32,000 bases of DNA from Candidatus Heimdallarchaeota archaeon B3_Heim. Its GTDB lineage: Archaea > Asgardarchaeota > Heimdallarchaeia > Hodarchaeales > Hodarchaeaceae. Shown one piece after another: positions 5,412 to 10,784 of this stretch (the first letter of the stretch is position 1; every line of letters begins with the position of its first letter). Location of the stretch: the NCBI GenBank assembly GCA_003144275.1, contig NJBF01000019.1, positions 30,001 to 62,000 of the forward strand, read 5' to 3'. The notes below the pieces were generated by a model. It was given only the letters and a program-made list of their open reading frames with translations. It ran no database searches and was not told where the DNA came from. The translations under genes were made by a program, and so were the position numbers.

Positions 5412-6902
5412 ATGGTTTCAATTAGAAGGATCCGCGTATATCGTTTTTTTAATGCAAGTGTATTTTTCTTATTAACACTCCTGCAAATGATTATAGTGTC
5501 TTGGATTTCTATCAGTCAAGTTCCAGATGAAGGATCAGATTTCACTTTCGCAAAAATTCTCGGTTTTTACATTTCAATTAATCCATTTTCAGAATTACGA
5601 TTCACTGCAGTTCTGGTAATCCTCACAGGAGGATTACAAATCCTATTATTAATCTTCTTAGTAAATGTTGTTTTTTCTAACAAGAATATGATACAAATTT
5701 TCCCACTACCCAAGAAAGGTATGGCTCACTTACCAGAAGAAGAAGAGCTAGTTAATAAAACAATAAATATTGTTTCAAATGTCGCAGAACGAACAAAAAT
5801 CAAGGTCAAAAAGATATTTGTTTATCGAAAAAGCGTACCTAATGCGTTTAGTCTGGATTTGATCCCAATTCCATTTTTGCGAAGACCTTATATCGTATTA
5901 AATACAAATGTGCTAGAAATTCTTAGTGATAATGAGATTGAAGCAGTTGTAGCACATGAACTTGCCCATGTTAAACATGGGGATAGTTTGTTTCGGCTAA
6001 TCTTGTCTATACCTCGTTTATTTCTTAATCTTGCTTATTTATTCATTTATCTCCAGGTTCTAACCGGTATCCAAAATTCACTGTTTGAAACATTTCGATT
6101 AATTGATGCAATAGAGAGAACATTATTTTTGGGATTAATATATTTAGTTATAGCAATACTAACAAAGTTTACTGTAAGGTTCTTGTATTCAGCAAATAGG
6201 CAGGCTGAATTTTTGTCTGATTATTTCGCTGCACAAGCAGTCGGATCCAATATCTTGATCAACTCGTTGATCCATCTGGGTCAAAGAAGTGAAACAATGC
6301 AAATCTTATCTCACGAGATTGAATGGCTAAATGGTTTAGCAGGAGAAAAAAAACCTTCAGCTGATTTTATGCGTAATATAAATCATCGATTCCCTCGAAC
6401 TCAGTTAAATGAGGATGTAGCCAGAGAAATGGCTCCAAGGATTTTTCTCGAGGAAAAGCTACATAGCTTAATGACAGCCTATGGATTAAAAATAGACCTA
6501 GATTATCGAGATCAGCTAATATCGCAGGCTGTTCCTTCATTACTGGAAAAAAGAATGAAGTTTTTCGAATCGATGGTTGAAAGTGATGAAGTCCTCACTC
6601 CGACTAAATTGAAGGAAAAGACAATTGATTGGAGAAAGTTTGATTCAGACGAAAGTTATTACTTAGAAGCAGAAGAACTTGATAATTTTATTGTTACATT
6701 ACTTTCTCATCCTCAAAAAATGGTATTTGAGCATGAAATCCTACAAACTCCAGAGAAAGATAGTGATCACCCAAGTTTCAGGACAAGAATCCTACAAATA
6801 TATAAAATCTTTCATCCACAAAATTACAGCAAGATTCTTGATGAGATTCTAAGTCAACAACCTGACACCACAAATTCTGAAGATATAGTGTCCAACAATT
6901 AG
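5412..6902 (+). CDS. Membrane zinc metalloprotease, M48/HtpX family, with extended C-terminus
   Basis: PNAF, EIEAVVAHELAH (HExxH), third-ligand motif RQAEFLSD and a late HPSFRTRI; several TM segments. Confidence 0.85.
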   Translation: MVSIRRIRVYRFFNASVFFLLTLLQMIIVSWISISQVPDEGSDFTFAKILGFYISINPFSELRFTAVLVILTGGLQILLLIFLVNVVFSNKNMIQIFPLPKKGMAHLPEEEELVNKTINIVSNVAERTKIKVKKIFVYRKSVPNAFSLDLIPIPFLRRPYIVLNTNVLEILSDNEIEAVVAHELAHVKHGDSLFRLILSIPRLFLNLAYLFIYLQVLTGIQNSLFETFRLIDAIERTLFLGLIYLVIAILTKFTVRFLYSANRQAEFLSDYFAAQAVGSNILINSLIHLGQRSETMQILSHEIEWLNGLAGEKKPSADFMRNINHRFPRTQLNEDVAREMAPRIFLEEKLHSLMTAYGLKIDLDYRDQLISQAVPSLLEKRMKFFESMVESDEVLTPTKLKEKTIDWRKFDSDESYYLEAEELDNFIVTLLSHPQKMVFEHEILQTPEKDSDHPSFRTRILQIYKIFHPQNYSKILDEILSQQPDTTNSEDIVSNN

Positions 6903-6904
6903 GA

Positions 6905-7939
6905 TTAAAAATATAATACCTTTTCTAACATATTAAGGATTAGTCGTTCATTTTCGGGTAAGAGAAATAATTTGACATTATTCATTCTGCGTAAATGGCC
7001 GAGTAGAGGTTTTGTCAGTTGTAAAGTTTGACGCCTAGGTGTTACAATGATTCTAACATCGTTAAATTTTCTTAAAATAGGTAAAAAGTCTCTTCCAGAT
7101 GTTGCTAATAAGTCAGATATCAGTACAAGTGTTTTTTTTCTGCTAATGACAGTAGAAAATTCTTTTTGAGCATTTAACAAAGCAGAATAAATATCAGTTT
7201 TTCCACCTGAGCTTAGTTTTATCAATTTTTTCACAATTCGAGTACTTGAATCGTGCCTATCTTTCATACTCTTAATTACAGACGGTCGTGTGTCAAAACT
7301 AATTATGCCCAGATCTTTATTTTGTAATGCTAAGCTGAATATTATTGCTGAAATAATAATAAATCTCAAGTGCTGAATAACGGAATGACTCTTATCAATT
7401 AGTAGGACTACTGTTGCTTTCCTTTCTTTTCGTTCCTCACAAACAACATGTGAGTAGTTTAAATTTTTATCCCCTGAAACCAAGAATTTAGTTACAGTTT
7501 TTTCGACATTCCATTTTCTCCCTGGCATATATGGTATTCGGATAGGATATCTTGAACGATCAATGCTATGAAATAATGATTCAGAGTGTTTTATCATCCT
7601 TGGGATTAGTTTTCGCATCAATTTTTTTTCAATTGAGGGATCTAGATGATCTTTTATTTGAAAAACTAGAGTGCTTGATTCTAAAACAAGATTAGAGTTG
7701 AAATTTTCCATCTGTATGACGTCTGCCACGACGTGAGGATATGATTCAGCTAGAATTTCAACTGCATGCAAATTTCGCGATTTGAGTGCCTGTTCTGTAA
7801 ATTCGATAGTTTTCGAAGTATCAAGCTTTTGCTGAAGTCGATATTCAAGGATAGTTTCAATCAGATCATACTGATGAGTAGGGGGAGATAATTTAATTGT
7901 GTGTTCTGATACCGCGGGCTCTCCGTCCCGCTTTTCTAG
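6905..7939 (-). CDS. VWA (MIDAS) domain reading frame, CoxE-like; probably the -1 frame portion of an AAA-VWA fusion
   Basis: MIDAS motif LLIDKSHS...GGKTD...ISD. The frame is open from 7948 to the stop at 6905, with no ATG/GTG/TTG upstream of TTG 7771 (59 start-less codons). Confidence 0.8.
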   Translation of the reverse strand, partial: LEKRDGEPAVSEHTIKLSPPTHQYDLIETILEYRLQQKLDTSKTIEFTEQALKSRNLHAVEILAESYPHVVADVIQMENFNSNLVLESSTLVFQIKDHLDPSIEKKLMRKLIPRMIKHSESLFHSIDRSRYPIRIPYMPGRKWNVEKTVTKFLVSGDKNLNYSHVVCEERKERKATVVLLIDKSHSVIQHLRFIIISAIIFSLALQNKDLGIISFDTRPSVIKSMKDRHDSSTRIVKKLIKLSSGGKTDIYSALLNAQKEFSTVISRKKTLVLISDLLATSGRDFLPILRKFNDVRIIVTPRRQTLQLTKPLLGHLRRMNNVKLFLLPENERLILNMLEKVLYF

Positions 7940-7945
7940 TTTTTT
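7884..7945 (-). promoter_or_regulatory. Candidate -1 programmed ribosomal frameshift signal (slippery heptamer plus downstream stem-loop or pseudoknot)
   Basis: Minus strand reads CCA AAA AAC TAG AAAA GCGGG ACGGAGAG CCCGC ... TCTCC. Heptamer A_AAA_AAC at 7945-7939, 7-nt spacer, stem 7931-7927/7918-7914. Confidence 0.65.
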
Positions 7946-8796
7946 GGTCTATTCTCAAAAAAAACCTCGCCAGCTATCTCATGTAAACACTCTTCGACTG
8001 ATCGAGAAATATCAAGCTGTAGTTTAATTTTACCAGAGTAAACTGCATTGATTGCTTGAATTATTTGTTTATCTTGGTTTTCTTCATTCATCAATAATTG
8101 TGTTAACTGAATAGCTGCTCGAATACTTGCACCACGTTCGAAATCAGTATTGGAACGAGTTTTTTCAGTGAATAATACACATTTGTGTATTAACTCATCA
8201 TCAGCACAATTAGTCCTTAATTTGACTATTTCCTCCGCAATTTTTCCAGTTTTATGTGTTAAATGGATTCTAATGCATCTATCAAAAAATGCTTCAGGTA
8301 ACGGATTAGTACCAATATATTCTGAAGGATTAAGGGTAAAAATTGTATAAAAATCATCTCTTGCCTTAATATTTATATATTGTGGAATTTCAATGGATCT
8401 TTCGCTGGAATCCATTGCAGAAAGTGCTCCATTAATTGATTCACTTGGCGCACGATTGACTTCATTAAAGAAGAATAATCCTCCTTTTGACATTGCCAAT
8501 GTTAGAGGACCTAGTATGAAAGATTTTTCTCCAAAACCTGATTCGATGACTAAAGACGGATCAAACCAACCACGAAGCTGTGTAATTGTTAGATTTTCAT
8601 CTCCATCAACTCTGTAAAATGGCCTTTCAAGGGCAAAAGCAATGGTTTTTGCTAGTTCTGTTTTCCCTGTTCCTGATTCTCCTTCTACAATAATACTGAT
8701 ATTTTGATCTATAGCCTTCAAAATAAGAATAATATGATCATCTAAATCAACTAAATTCTCTTTACACTTGTTAAGAATCATCTGTACTTGCATCAA
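7936..8796 (-). CDS. MoxR-type AAA+ ATPase (CoxD/CbbQ/NorQ/GvpN-like)
   Basis: Walker A GESGTGKT, Walker B-like FFFNEVNR, TLNP, LPEAFFDR and sensor II ASIR. GGTGA Shine-Dalgarno (SD) before TTG/ATG. Confidence 0.88.
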   Translation of the reverse strand: MMQVQMILNKCKENLVDLDDHIILILKAIDQNISIIVEGESGTGKTELAKTIAFALERPFYRVDGDENLTITQLRGWFDPSLVIESGFGEKSFILGPLTLAMSKGGLFFFNEVNRAPSESINGALSAMDSSERSIEIPQYINIKARDDFYTIFTLNPSEYIGTNPLPEAFFDRCIRIHLTHKTGKIAEEIVKLRTNCADDELIHKCVLFTEKTRSNTDFERGASIRAAIQLTQLLMNEENQDKQIIQAINAVYSGKIKLQLDISRSVEECLHEIAGEVFFENRPKN

Positions 8797-8837: not shown

Positions 8838-10784
8838 TTATTCAAGATCTAAAAAACTTTTTTTCAGGGAGACTAGTGCTCGATCTACATTGTAATCAAT
8901 CCATCCTTCAGATTCTAATTCTTTCATTAGACGTTCTGCAAATACAAGTTGAATTGCGACAGTTTTAGCCAATTCTTCTACTGAAGCCTGTTGGATATCT
9001 TGGAGAACAAAGAGTATCGCATATTTTGGATTTTTGGACAGATTTATCTTCAGAACTTCAACAGCTTGTTTATACTGTTCAGATTCCTCTTTCAGTTTTG
9101 TTACCTGACGATTAAGAGCTTCATTTTCCCCATTACTCTTTGTAATTTCATTCTTGAACAAATTAATTTTCTTATCTAATCTTTTATTTTCCTTATTCGC
9201 TTCAGCAAGCTGGAGTCCTAGACTCTTAATTTCTACATCGTATGTCTCTTTTTGTCGCTCAAAAGCCGCAGTTTTTGTTCTTGAACCATCAATCTCCTCC
9301 CTCAAATTTTCATGTTTCTCTCTGATGGTATCTAATTCCTTCATTGCTTCAACTACTTCCAAATTTTTTGTTTTGAGTTGAGTCTCCTGTTCGAGTATAG
9401 AAGACTTTTGTTTTTCAAAATGTATCTTTAAATTAGCCAGATTTTCCCGAGATTCATTCAAGGCTTTTTCTATTACGTCAATTCGTTCATCCTTACCTTG
9501 GATTTCCACTTGTAAGTCTTCTGTTGAGGTTACAAAAGCTCGATTTTCAGTACGTAATTTATCTTCTGCTTCTTTTGCTTCTTGAAGTCGCAATTGAATT
9601 TTTTCAATAAGTGCATCCTTATCGTCCATTTCTTGCTGTGTATGCGTTAAATTGCCTTCCACTTTTTCCCTGGAAGACTCACTTGATGCAAGTTTTTGTT
9701 TAAATTCGACTTTCTCTTTTTCTTGTAATTCAACCTGATTTTCAAGATCACTTAATCGACGATTCAGGTCTTCATTTTCCTTGATCTTCTGGTCAAGCAA
9801 AACTCTAGATTCAGATAATTCTTTTCTAATAGTTAAGGCGTCTTCAGTAGTTTCTCCTGAATCAATTAACAGATCTTCATTCTCTTTCTCCAATATTTGA
9901 TTTCTTTCTTCTAAATCAGTCATAGCAATTTTAATTTCGCTAATTTGTGAATTCAGAACTTTTTTATCCTCTAGCAGATCATCCGATTGTTTAGAAGATG
10001 CTTTTTTTACTTTCTCAATTTCATTTTGAACAACTGTTTTGAGATTTGCTATCTCGTCATTTAGCTTAATGTTTTGTTCTTTTAGAATGATATTATCTTC
10101 TGCATGACTAGTAAGAACTTGTACTTCCGAGTTCAAGTTTTCTACTTCTATATCCTTGTTTCCTATTACTGTCTGTAGTTCCTCAATTTCTAAACGTGTA
10201 GTCATCAATGTATTACCTATGACCTCATATTCCGCTTCAATTTTGTCCCTTTCTAATTTTGCCTGTTTCAATTCTCTTTGAGCTTCATCAAGTAGCTCTT
10301 GAATACGATTTATCTCTTCTAATTGATCTTGATATTTTTCAGATGTTGACCCAGTTTTTGAATTTAAAAGAGAAATTTCTGCTTCTTTTTGTTCTAATAA
10401 GATTTCCAAATTTTCAATTTTTTTTTCAAAGGGTGACGAATCTGTTGCTTGCTGACTTAAAGATTTAATCTCATTCTGCATTCTTTGAAGTTCAGATTTT
10501 GCTATAAGCGTTGAATCTGACTCTGGTTGCACAAGGTCAATATTATCAATGTCTTTCATCCCTCTTTTAGAAAATTCTGTATGTGCTTCCTTATTTAAAA
10601 TAATGATTTTCTCTTTTAAGCTTTCTATGACTTCTTCTACATCTTGCAACGTATAATAGGATTTCGGTCGTGATTGAAGTTTATTTACACTGCTTTTCAT
10701 TTCAGAGGAAATTTCATGTTCCAATCTTCGAGCTTGTTGGGCAATACTTCTTATGAAAGCAAGTTTGGGATTGTTACTGGCCAA
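8838..10784 (-). CDS. Long coiled-coil protein with C-terminal winged helix-turn-helix
   Basis: About 500 aa of E/K/L/Q-rich heptads and no Walker motifs. C-terminus KYAILFVLQDIQQASVEELAKTV...MKELESEGWIDY looks like a wHTH. TTG start with upstream GAGGG. Confidence 0.7.
   Translation of the reverse strand: MASNNPKLAFIRSIAQQARRLEHEISSEMKSSVNKLQSRPKSYYTLQDVEEVIESLKEKIIILNKEAHTEFSKRGMKDIDNIDLVQPESDSTLIAKSELQRMQNEIKSLSQQATDSSPFEKKIENLEILLEQKEAEISLLNSKTGSTSEKYQDQLEEINRIQELLDEAQRELKQAKLERDKIEAEYEVIGNTLMTTRLEIEELQTVIGNKDIEVENLNSEVQVLTSHAEDNIILKEQNIKLNDEIANLKTVVQNEIEKVKKASSKQSDDLLEDKKVLNSQISEIKIAMTDLEERNQILEKENEDLLIDSGETTEDALTIRKELSESRVLLDQKIKENEDLNRRLSDLENQVELQEKEKVEFKQKLASSESSREKVEGNLTHTQQEMDDKDALIEKIQLRLQEAKEAEDKLRTENRAFVTSTEDLQVEIQGKDERIDVIEKALNESRENLANLKIHFEKQKSSILEQETQLKTKNLEVVEAMKELDTIREKHENLREEIDGSRTKTAAFERQKETYDVEIKSLGLQLAEANKENKRLDKKINLFKNEITKSNGENEALNRQVTKLKEESEQYKQAVEVLKINLSKNPKYAILFVLQDIQQASVEELAKTVAIQLVFAERLMKELESEGWIDYNVDRALVSLKKSFLDLE

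What the first reader, a model, noticed from the sequence alone, without database searches (positions are those of the whole stretch)
6905..8796. Candidate programmed -1 frameshift fusing a MoxR AAA+ ATPase to its VWA partner: one gene, two chaperone subunits
Seen: the AAA ORF ends ...AGA CCA AAA AAC TAG, so a canonical X_XXY_YYZ heptamer (A_AAA_AAC, 7945-7939) sits directly before its stop. The -1 frame is the VWA frame and is open to 6905. It is closed by a TAG at 7951-7949, so the two frames overlap for only ~10 nt, and the heptamer lies inside that overlap. The 59 codons upstream of the annotated TTG 7771 have no ATG/GTG/TTG, yet read like protein: a charged/Pro linker (LEKRDGEPAVSEHTIKLSPP) then amphipathic helices. 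TTG 7771 lacks a clear SD, whereas most neighbouring genes have one. Established: A_AAA_AAC is a known -1 slippery site. Frameshifted chlD-type chelatase genes yield both a short AAA and a long AAA-VWA subunit, and MoxR ATPases work with VWA adaptors (CoxD/E, CbbQ/O, NorQ/D, RavA/ViaA). Inference: this locus makes a 286-aa AAA and a ~630-aa AAA-VWA fusion at a ratio set by recoding, building a hetero-hexamer that carries its own adaptor. I know of no such report for a MoxR-type system or an Asgard gene.
Basis: partly seen in the sequence, partly recalled or inferred. Interest (0 to 1): 0.92.

Follow-up and report, generated by a model that had tools for sequence, protein, structure and literature searches.

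The report
Frameshift site joining ATPase to VWA
In a Hodarchaeota (Asgard archaeon) genome, what looks like two neighbouring genes, a NorQ/CbbQ-like AAA+ ATPase and a VWA/MIDAS protein with no start codon, is most likely one recoded gene: some ribosomes slip back one base at a conserved A_AAA_AAC site before a hairpin and so make a short ATPase and a long ATPase-VWA protein.

Summary

- **Site.** On the minus strand the AAA_5 ORF (8796-7936) ends CCA AAA AAC TAG. The -1 frame is open from 7948 to 6905 and has no ATG/GTG/TTG for 59 codons.
- **Conservation.** All 35 orthologous loci examined keep the same layout. These are 20 Hodarchaeota, 14 other Heimdallarchaeia and one further Hodarchaeales contig, at 28-95% protein identity. 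Each has the -1 offset and an in-phase A_AAA_AAN heptamer inside the short overlap. Most have a hairpin 7-8 nt downstream.
- **Hairpin.** It is the invariant GCGGGA/UCCCGC in Hodarchaeota and is built from rare CGG and CCC codons. In the sister family it is a different stem that covaries.
- **Coding.** The start-less stretch evolves as coding sequence, with pN/pS 0.08-0.18.
- **Assembly.** Contigs from three independent studies carry the same A6.
- **Natural fusions.** In-frame AAA-VWA fusions of 613-649 aa exist. One genome instead has a short AAA gene plus a separate fusion gene.
- **Background.** A scan of this genome finds only this pair and its paralog with such a cassette.

The closest precedent is the frameshifted chlD gene; the closest fold match is NorQ/NorD. 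This scan has already noted similar slip sites in bacterial MoxR-VWA pairs. I rate it a new variant of a known kind.

The parts
7936..8796 (-). Zero-frame ORF: a 286-aa AAA+ ATPase of the MoxR class (CbbQ/NorQ/GvpN-like). Walker A is GESGTGKT (residues 39-46). Walker B reads FFFNE (N111-E112), with Asn in place of the usual Asp. This is the short product.
   Evidence: AAA_5 5.5e-17, AAA_3 3.3e-11. (GvpN 73 bits, below the cut-off); the AAA half of a natural fusion superposes on NorQ/CbbQ with TM 0.80-0.86.
7939..7945 (-). Slippery heptamer A_AAA_AAC, in the phase X_XXY_YYZ of the zero frame, directly before the TAG stop at 7938-7936.
   Evidence: an in-phase A_AAA_AAN heptamer is present in all 27 family-1 loci analysed in that call, and adds 7 more. 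A_AAA_AAC is among the recognised A-rich shift heptamers (PMC3711429).
7949..7951 (-). TAG that closes the -1 (VWA) frame just upstream of the heptamer. It limits the two-frame overlap to 10 nt.
7932..7938 (-). 7-nt spacer (TAGAAAA) between the heptamer and the hairpin. It includes the zero-frame stop.
   Evidence: the spacer to the invariant stem core is 7 nt in all 17 Hodarchaeota loci that have the hairpin.
7914..7931 (-). Stimulatory hairpin: GCGGG (7931-7927), an 8-nt loop, then CCCGC (7918-7914). In most orthologs the stem is 6-9 bp (GCGGGA/UCCCGC plus extensions).
   Evidence: -10.1 kcal/mol, z -2.4 in the window; -11 to -18 kcal/mol in most orthologs. (core invariant in 17 loci, loop variable). 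(always the rare codons CGG and CCC).
6905..7948 (-). -1 frame, 347 codons: a disordered linker (residues 1-23), a helical domain (24-128) and a VWA domain with an intact MIDAS motif (D185-x-S187-x-S189 at 7396-7382, T251, D279). After the shift it gives a trans-frame product of about 630 aa.
   Evidence: invariant columns. (AF2 pLDDT 83). (best fold matches are NorD, then the Rea1/MDN1 MIDAS domain).
7772..7879 (-). Start-less part of the helical domain (residues 24-59, two predicted helices). It lies upstream of the only candidate start, TTG 7771-7769, and is under purifying selection in the VWA frame.
   Evidence: pN/pS 0.08-0.18 for residues 27-59, against 0.12-0.19 for residues 60-346. 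(helices 24-38 and 44-56). (no conserved start codon among orthologs).
8838..10784 (-). Upstream gene on the same strand, 41 nt before the AAA ORF: a 648-aa coiled-coil protein with a weak C-terminal MarR-like wHTH hit. It is probably in the same operon and is a candidate client or partner.
   Evidence: conserved in this position in all Hodarchaeota loci (41-95% identity). A coiled-coil gene also precedes the pair in L072.

Best explanation
This is one recoded gene. Ribosomes translate the AAA+ ORF and reach A_AAA_AAC (7945-7939) while the GC hairpin 7 nt downstream sits at the mRNA entry channel.

- Most ribosomes read on to TAG and release the 286-aa ATPase.
- A fraction slip back one base. 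The tRNAs re-pair on AAA AAA, and translation continues in the -1 frame through a roughly 20-residue disordered linker, a helical domain and a MIDAS-containing VWA domain. The result is an AAA-VWA protein of about 630 aa.

By analogy with the single NorD that Kahle et al. show engaging the NorQ hexamer, and with the frameshifted chlD gene, the short and long forms would co-assemble into one AAA+ ring. The adaptor would then be covalently tethered, and the frameshift efficiency would set its dose.

Shown by sequence comparison: the cassette, its conservation, coding constraint in both frames, the lack of a start codon, and the existence of natural fusions. Inferred: that slippage happens on the ribosome, its efficiency, co-assembly, and the cellular client. 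The client may be the conserved upstream coiled-coil protein; the function is otherwise unknown.
For: 1. **Offset and heptamer.** All 20 Hodarchaeota loci and all 14 loci of a sister Heimdallarchaeia family keep the -1 offset, an in-phase A_AAA_AAN heptamer inside a 10-88 nt overlap, and a zero-frame stop 0-18 nt after it. The L072 pair does the same.
2. **Hairpin at PRF spacing.**
   - In 17 Hodarchaeota loci the core GCGGGA/UCCCGC is invariant 7 nt after the heptamer, while the loop varies freely.
   - It always uses CGG (7% of Arg codons here) and CCC (17% of Pro codons), although synonymous sites elsewhere are near saturation.
   - In the sister family a different two-tier stem sits 8 nt downstream. 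It is 89.8% paired, against 25-58% in slid controls, and 5 pairs show compensatory changes.
3. **No conserved start.** One ortholog has no start codon in 110 codons. The start-less residues 27-59 have pN/pS 0.08-0.18, like the rest of the protein, and fold as two confident helices.
4. **A6 is real.** It is reproduced in contigs from three studies with no indel. Two of the orthologs lie on closed chromosomes.
5. **Natural in-frame fusions.**
   - They are 613-649 aa long.
   - Two of them keep an in-frame A-run in the AAA/linker junction region (A8 in P0003, A7 in P0004).
   - One genome encodes a 277-aa AAA next to a separate 638-aa AAA-VWA gene, a two-gene way of making the same two products.
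6. **Genome-wide outlier**.
7. **Precedents.**
   - The frameshifted chlD gene, with 10-63% shifting on A7-A11 in E. coli reporters (PMC3711429).
   - The archaeal fucA1 gene, which shifts on A-AAA-AAT (PMC8211752).
Against: - There is no RNA or protein evidence. No RNA run holds the locus.
- Within Hodarchaeota the stem core never varies, so covariation cannot be scored there. Support rests on the codon-usage anomaly and on the sister family.
- In the window itself the hairpin is the weakest of the set: 5 bp, an A.G mismatch, -10.1 kcal/mol.
- Three Hodarchaeota loci lack the hairpin and have A10-A11, and one has A13. These fit transcriptional slippage as well or better.
- In the sister family an in-frame ATG about 20 codons after the slip site is present in 13 of 14 loci and could allow separate initiation.
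- Two Hodarchaeota orthologs have an ATG upstream in the -1 frame.
- The Walker B Asp is replaced by Asn across the family, so ATPase competence is not certain.
Confidence: 0.8

Rival explanations
1. Transcriptional slippage. RNA polymerase adds one A in the A-run, so a fraction of the mRNAs encode the in-frame fusion. The ribosome reads normally.
For: - A-runs of A9-A13 occur in five orthologs (L007, L014, L018-L020). The three loci without an intact hairpin (L018-L020) have A10-A11. This parallels Thermus dnaX and the poly-A chelatase genes (PMC3711429).
- Natural fusions carry an in-frame A7 or A8 run in the same junction region, consistent with a one-A difference from the split forms.
Against: - The window has only A6, and most orthologs have A6-A7. 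That is shorter than the runs cited for slippage (An with n above 7; PMC3711429).
- A hairpin conserved at 7-8 nt downstream, in two sequence-unrelated versions, is the signature of a ribosomal stimulator. It has no known role downstream of a polymerase slip site.
- All A6 and A7 runs are in the exact codon phase that tandem tRNA slippage needs.
Confidence: 0.11
2. Two ordinary genes. The VWA protein starts independently at TTG 7771, at a non-canonical codon, or by termination-reinitiation. On this view the -1 offset is a relic of an ancestral ATGA-type overlap.
For: - The -1 offset is what a 4-nt ATGA overlap gives.
- In the paralogous family, several lineages do have a conserved SD-like AGAGG plus ATG about 60 nt downstream, or an ATGA overlap.
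- The sister family has a semi-conserved in-frame ATG.
Against: - TTG 7771 falls inside a conserved helical domain and would remove two confident helices.
- The 59 codons before it are under the same purifying selection as the rest of the protein.
- Candidate starts occupy different positions in different orthologs or are absent.
- This view does not explain the in-phase heptamer, the rare-codon hairpin or the fixed spacing.
Confidence: 0.06
3. Artefact or decay: a homopolymer sequencing error in a plain fusion gene, or a recent frameshift mutation (pseudogene).
For: A single extra A would restore one frame, and natural in-frame fusions exist.
Against: - The same state occurs in 35 loci from many studies, including two closed chromosomes.
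- Contigs from three independent studies show no indel.
- Both halves are under purifying selection.
Confidence: 0.02
4. The hairpin and the adjacent homopolymer act at the DNA or transcription level, for example as a terminator for antisense or convergent transcription, and not in decoding.
For: On the plus strand the same hairpin is followed by a T-rich run and is picked up as terminator-like. A convergent gene lies downstream of the VWA gene in both families.
Against: - The site is 1 kb inside the VWA gene, far from the end of the convergent gene.
- To my knowledge, hairpin-dependent termination has not been established in archaea.
- This view does not explain the codon phase of the A-run, the nearby zero-frame stop or the missing start codon.
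Confidence: 0.01

Closest known systems
Frameshifted chlD ('magnesium/cobalt chelatase') genes (Antonov et al. 2013, PMC3711429; Antonov 2020, as cited in PMC9227772)
   Same: One gene yields a short AAA+ subunit and a long AAA+-linker-VWA subunit. The shift is usually -1, on an A-rich slippery site with a downstream RNA structure. In-frame fused relatives exist. Such genes are also found in archaea (Methanocaldococcus, Methanococcus).
   Different: - The ATPase family differs: AAA_5, NorQ/CbbQ-like, with no Mg_chelatase domain. BchD-ChlD TIGR02031 scores 30 bits against a cut-off of 500.
- The VWA is of CoxE/NorD type.
- No CobN/ChlH large subunit was found in the 94%-complete genome.
- The run is a short A6-A7 with a fixed hairpin, not a long poly-A run.
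- The lineage is Asgard.
NorQ-NorD and CbbQ-CbbO (MoxR-class AAA+ hexamer with one VWA adaptor; PMC13036017, PMC9976466)
   Same: These are the best fold matches for both halves: NorQ/CbbQ at TM 0.80-0.86, and NorD as the top hit for the VWA part. The MIDAS motif is intact. The gene order is AAA then VWA.
   Different: - Those pairs are separate polypeptides. Here the VWA part has no start of its own and would be covalently joined to one ATPase subunit.
- The NorD-like N-terminal domain is replaced by a roughly 100-residue helical domain.
- No nor or Rubisco genes lie nearby.
- Walker B reads NE, not DE.
Saccharolobus solfataricus fucA1 (the only experimentally shown archaeal cellular -1 PRF; PMC1616953, PMC8211752)
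   Same: It is archaeal, uses an A-AAA-AAT-type heptamer in a short two-ORF overlap, and has a flanking stem-loop.
   Different: fucA1 makes a single functional enzyme, and its zero-frame product is a fragment. Here both products are plausible functional subunits, and the site is conserved across at least two families of a class.
dnaX (tau/gamma) of E. coli and Thermus
   Same: An A-rich heptamer plus a downstream hairpin set the ratio of two subunits of one AAA+ assembly. Some lineages use long A-runs and transcriptional slippage instead.
   Different: In dnaX the shifted product is the short one. Here the shift extends the protein. No upstream SD-like stimulator is seen.
Midasin (Rea1/MDN1)
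   Same: It has AAA_5-type modules and a C-terminal MIDAS domain in one polypeptide. Rea1/MDN1 MIDAS structures rank just after NorD for the VWA model.
   Different: Midasin has six tandem AAA modules and a very large linker. The high sequence E-value (5e-24) is a sum over its six modules. The best single module scores 32 bits, no better than bacterial MoxR 2r44 at 35 bits.

Membership tests
Programmed -1 ribosomal frameshift cassette | An X_XXY_YYZ heptamer in the zero-frame phase, lying inside the region where both frames are open | tested here: met
   A_AAA_AAC at 7945-7939. An in-phase A_AAA_AAN heptamer is present in all 34 family-1 loci scripted, and in L072.
Programmed -1 ribosomal frameshift cassette | A stable RNA structure 5-9 nt downstream of the heptamer, conserved as structure | tested here: met
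   - The spacer is 7 nt to an invariant GC stem in 17 of 20 Hodarchaeota loci.
- The stem is built from rare codons.
- In the sister family the spacer is 8 nt to a covarying two-tier stem.
- The hairpin is absent in 3 loci that have A10-A11.
Programmed -1 ribosomal frameshift cassette | The downstream frame is coding right from the shift site and has no initiation site of its own | tested here: met
   There is no conserved start. pN/pS is 0.08-0.18 in the start-less residues 27-59. The linker residues 14-26 are less constrained (0.4-0.8). The sister family has a semi-conserved ATG about 20 codons in, so this row is weaker for that family.
Programmed -1 ribosomal frameshift cassette | A trans-frame protein is detected and depends on the heptamer | not testable with these tools
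   No RNA or proteome data were available (one search lists DNA contigs only).
MoxR-class AAA+ ATPase (CbbQ/NorQ/GvpN subgroup) | A single AAA+ module of AAA_5/AAA_3 type with Walker A, Walker B, sensor and Arg-finger motifs, and a NorQ/CbbQ-like fold | tested here: met
   - Pfam AAA_5 at 62 bits and AAA_3 at 44 bits, both above their cut-offs.
- Fold TM 0.80-0.86 to NorQ/CbbQ for the homologous fusion.
- Walker A is intact. Walker B is NE instead of DE, which is atypical.
- No NCBIfam equivalog cut-off is reached; GvpN scores 73 bits against 267.
MoxR-associated VWA/MIDAS adaptor (NorD/CbbO/ViaA/CoxE type) | A VWA fold with the MIDAS motif DxSxS...T...D, encoded next to the ATPase | tested here: met
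   VWA_CoxE and VWA_2 score above their cut-offs. D185, S187, S189, T251 and D279 are invariant in 26 sequences. NorD is the top fold match.
fs-chlD / class I chelatase I-D motor | A ChlI/ChlD-type ATPase domain (Pfam Mg_chelatase; TIGR02031) | tested here: not met
   There is no Mg_chelatase hit for either half or for the natural fusions. TIGR02031 scores 30 bits against a cut-off of 499.6.
fs-chlD / class I chelatase I-D motor | A CobN/ChlH large subunit in the genome | tested here: not met
   PF02514 was not found in the 94%-complete genome. Controls gave hits in 5 reference genomes.
Midasin | Six tandem AAA modules in one chain with a C-terminal MIDAS domain | tested here: not met
   There is one AAA module per product. 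The per-module similarity is no higher than to bacterial MoxR.

The most novel reading that the evidence does not exclude
Recoding may be a lineage-wide design principle for MoxR-VWA machines in the archaea closest to eukaryotes.

- Two paralogous AAA-VWA pairs in the same Hodarchaeota genome carry PRF cassettes built from different parts: A_AAA_AAN with GCGGGA/UCCCGC, and U_UUU_UUA with CCCGAG/CUCGGG.
- The resulting single-chain AAA_5-linker-MIDAS proteins would be simple, one-module relatives of the midasin architecture.
- If so, Asgard ribosomes respond to eukaryote/virus-style heptamer-spacer-hairpin signals, and covalent AAA-MIDAS tethering predates midasin.
Probability: 0.1. Interest if true: 0.85.

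Novelty: new variant of a known kind. Interest (0 to 1): 0.66.

Why it matters
- **Evidence for archaeal recoding.** A 2021 review lists only one experimentally shown cellular -1 frameshift in Archaea (fucA1). This locus offers a much better conserved case, with a textbook heptamer-spacer-hairpin signal, in Asgard archaea. Their translation apparatus is of special interest because of their position next to eukaryotes.
- **MoxR-VWA biology.** These chaperone-like systems are always described as two proteins that must find each other, for example one NorD on a NorQ hexamer. Here the adaptor would be made only as an extension of an ATPase subunit, so the frameshift efficiency, not binding, would fix the stoichiometry.
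- **Annotation.** Gene callers split the gene and give the VWA part arbitrary internal starts. As a result, a conserved helical domain is truncated in the databases.

Tried and rejected
- **H-type pseudoknot** (loop GGAGA with TCTCC 25 nt downstream, from the companion note). Complementarity between the loop and the downstream sequence is no better than in shuffles in any of 17 orthologs, and the nearest relative already breaks it.
- **Special kinship to midasin.** The E-value of 5e-24 is the sum of six AAA modules. The best single module scores 32 bits, against 35 bits for bacterial MoxR.
- **Rfam.** No family matches 7700-8100.
- **RNA evidence.** No RNA holder is listed. Only Logan DNA contigs were available, so neither expression nor the A-count in transcripts could be examined.
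- **SD argument.** About half of the window's ORFs have an SD-like motif, so its absence before TTG 7771 says little.
- **Conserved GGTGA in the sister family as an SD for a nearby ATG.** That ATG is out of frame and 24 nt away. The motif is part of the outer stem.
- **Sigma-70 promoter scan.** Nothing above the shuffle level, and the scan is not suited to archaea.
- **Complex prediction of AAA with the VWA part.** Not run. A hexamer does not fit the size limit, and the result would not bear on the frameshift.
- **Literature.** Searches for Asgard or MoxR frameshifting found no report of this locus type.
Full report
**Observation.** The minus strand reads ...GAG AAT AGA CCA AAA AAC TAG.
- The AAA ORF is 8796-7936 and encodes 286 aa.
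- The heptamer A_AAA_AAC is at 7945-7939.
- The -1 frame is closed by TAG 7951-7949 and then open for 347 codons to 6905.
- Its first ATG/GTG/TTG is codon 60, TTG 7771.
- Pfam assigns AAA_5/AAA_3 to the first ORF and VWA_CoxE/VWA_2 to the second frame.
- NCBIfam gives only sub-threshold GvpN, MadB and BchD-ChlD similarities.

**Is the A6 real?** Logan contigs from four runs were laid on 7700-8200. Contigs from three different studies bridge the site at 95-99% identity. They carry substitutions elsewhere but no inserted or missing letter. No RNA run holds the locus.

**Orthologs in the same genus.** A six-frame search of 60 relatives found the VWA frame in 19 other genomes of the genus, at 48-95% identity.
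- The match begins at query residue 1-2 in most of them, which is right at the A-run.
- The open frame is always only 345-368 codons.
- Scripts show that all 20 loci have the same -1 offset and an A-run of 6-13.
- Each A-run contains an in-phase A_AAA_AAN heptamer inside the overlap.
- The zero-frame stop lies 0-18 nt after the heptamer.
- Candidate start codons are scattered or absent; L007 has none in 110 codons.
- Record titles name the organisms as Candidatus Hodarchaeota / Heimdallarchaeota MAGs. Two are closed chromosomes, CP070760 and CP070695.

**The hairpin in Hodarchaeota.** In 17 of the 20 loci an invariant core GCGGGA...UCCCGC starts exactly 7 nt after the heptamer.
- The 6-8 nt loop differs in nearly every species.
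- Folding energies are -8 to -18 kcal/mol, with z-scores mostly between -2 and -5.
- Because the core never varies, covariation cannot be scored within this genus.
- In the VWA frame, however, the arms are always CGG and CCC. These make up 7% of Arg codons and 17% of Pro codons in this 36%-GC window.
- Synonymous sites between these species are near saturation, with pS 0.5-0.8.
- The residues encoded by the arms (RD..PA) are missing in the two loci that lack the hairpin. The constraint is therefore on the RNA, not the protein.
- The three loci without an intact hairpin have A10-A11.

**A sister family.** Fourteen loci from another Heimdallarchaeia family, at about 30% identity, keep the -1 offset, an in-phase A7 and a 19-28 nt overlap.
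- Eight nt downstream lies a different two-tier structure: an outer GGU/ACC stem and an inner stem of 4-8 bp.
- 89.8% of its cells are paired, against 25-58% when the 3' partners are slid.
- Five pairs show changes on both sides.
- A further Hodarchaeales contig (L072) has an A8 run, a stop, and an 8-bp stem of yet another sequence.

**The start-less stretch is coding.** Between close species, residues 27-59 have pN/pS 0.08-0.18, indistinguishable from residues 60-346 at 0.12-0.19. AlphaFold with the 26-sequence alignment gives pLDDT 83. Residues 1-23 are disordered and residues 24-128 are helical. Two of those helices lie upstream of TTG 7771, which therefore cannot be the natural N-terminus.

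**Natural fusions.** Database searches return in-frame AAA-VWA proteins of 613-649 aa.
- P0003 (618 aa) aligns with both halves, at 40% and 32% identity.
- It carries an in-frame A8 in the linker just after the AAA domain, reading GGA CAA AAA AAA GCA.
- Its gene sits directly after a frameshift-type pair.
- In another genome a 277-aa AAA gene is followed by a separate 638-aa AAA-VWA gene. That is the two-gene way of making the same two products, as with ChlI and ChlD.
- The fusion model has pLDDT 89 and shows an AAA domain, a short disordered linker, a helical domain and a VWA domain.

**What the proteins resemble.**
- Foldseek places the AAA half on NorQ and CbbQ, with TM 0.80-0.86.
- The VWA part is closest to NorD, then to the Rea1/MDN1 MIDAS domain.
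- The MIDAS residues are invariant.
- The Walker B aspartate is Asn across the family.
- In NorQD, a single NorD engages the NorQ hexamer through a finger in the central pore (PMC13036017).
- The midasin sequence hit is a six-module sum and indicates no special kinship.
- No CobN/ChlH gene was found in the genome, and no Mg_chelatase domain is present. This is therefore not a chlD gene.

**Background rate.** In the whole genome only this locus and its paralog combine three features: an in-phase heptamer, no start codon within tens of nucleotides, and a stable hairpin.

**The paralog.** The paralogous pair (G000 C80, locus L021) ends ...T_TTT_TTA TAA. A CCCGAG/CUCGGG stem follows after 7-9 nt.
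- In five other Hodarchaeota genomes the same arrangement holds.
- The only nearby ATG of L021 is TTG, CTA or CTG in those genomes.
- In other families of the class, this paralog has a normal SD-like motif plus ATG, or a +1 offset.

**Known precedents.**
- Frameshifted chelatase genes give a short AAA+ and a long AAA+-VWA subunit. They occur in bacteria and in methanogenic archaea, and they shifted at 10-63% on A7-A11 in E. coli reporters (PMC3711429, PMC9227772).
- The only archaeal cellular -1 PRF shown experimentally is fucA1, on A-AAA-AAT (PMC8211752).
- Searches found no report for MoxR-type or Asgard genes.
- This scan's own notes list similar slip sites in bacterial MoxR-VWA pairs. I did not test those notes.

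**Verdict.** The best explanation is a conserved programmed -1 ribosomal frameshift (about 0.8). Transcriptional slippage is the main rival and is probably the mechanism in the few long-A-run lineages. Co-assembly of the two products and the system's client remain inference.

Noticed in passing
L021:1336-2448 (own genome, G000 contig C80, about 66630-67750), with L073-L076, L092 and L028: A second, paralogous AAA_5/VWA_CoxE pair in the same genome has its own PRF-like cassette. The ATPase ORF ends T_TTT_TTA TAA, followed by a 7-9 nt spacer and a CCCGAG/CUCGGG hairpin (-13 to -20 kcal/mol), with a -1 offset. The nearby ATG is not conserved in five other Hodarchaeota genomes (TTG, CTA or CTG). 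In other Heimdallarchaeia families the same paralog has a normal SD-like motif plus ATG.
   Followed up: partly
L072:1946-5857: One Hodarchaeales contig carries a frameshift-type AAA/VWA pair (A8, a stop, and an 8-bp hairpin CTTTATAG/CTATAAAG). Directly behind it lies an in-frame 618-aa AAA-VWA paralog whose linker just after the AAA domain contains an in-frame A8 run. Three Arf/Ras-like small GTPase genes follow.
   Followed up: partly
L022:1898-4653 (minus strand): One genome of another family encodes a 277-aa AAA gene with no A-run at its end. A separate 638-aa AAA-VWA fusion gene follows immediately. This is a two-gene equivalent of the two products proposed for the frameshift loci.
   Followed up: partly
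L018, L019, L020 and L014 (junction regions): The three Hodarchaeota loci that lack an intact hairpin have A10-A11 runs. One locus that has the hairpin has A13. This suggests a switch to, or a contribution from, transcriptional slippage in these lineages, as with dnaX in Thermus. Assembly error in these long runs was not excluded.
   Followed up: no
window 8461-8466 (minus strand; residues N111-E112 of the AAA ORF): Walker B reads FFFNE. The usual aspartate is Asn in this family (Gln in one fusion), while the catalytic Glu is kept. The effect on ATP hydrolysis is unknown.
   Followed up: no
window 8838-10784 (minus strand) and 5412-6902 (plus strand): A 648-aa coiled-coil protein with a weak C-terminal MarR-like wHTH hit lies directly upstream on the same strand. 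A membrane M48 peptidase lies convergently downstream. Both are conserved in these positions in all Hodarchaeota loci. The sister family has different neighbours (a zinc-ribbon protein and a YdjM-like membrane protein).
   Followed up: partly
window 7914-7945 (plus strand): Read on the opposite strand, the hairpin followed by the complement of the A-run scores as an intrinsic-terminator-like site. This is probably a by-product of the cassette.
   Followed up: no
window 7959-7966 (minus strand): A T8 run lies 13 nt upstream of the heptamer, and T6-T9 runs are conserved at this place in Hodarchaeota orthologs. It encodes the conserved Phe-Phe of the ATPase C-terminus. Oligo-T is an archaeal termination signal, so partial termination here cannot be excluded.
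   Followed up: no
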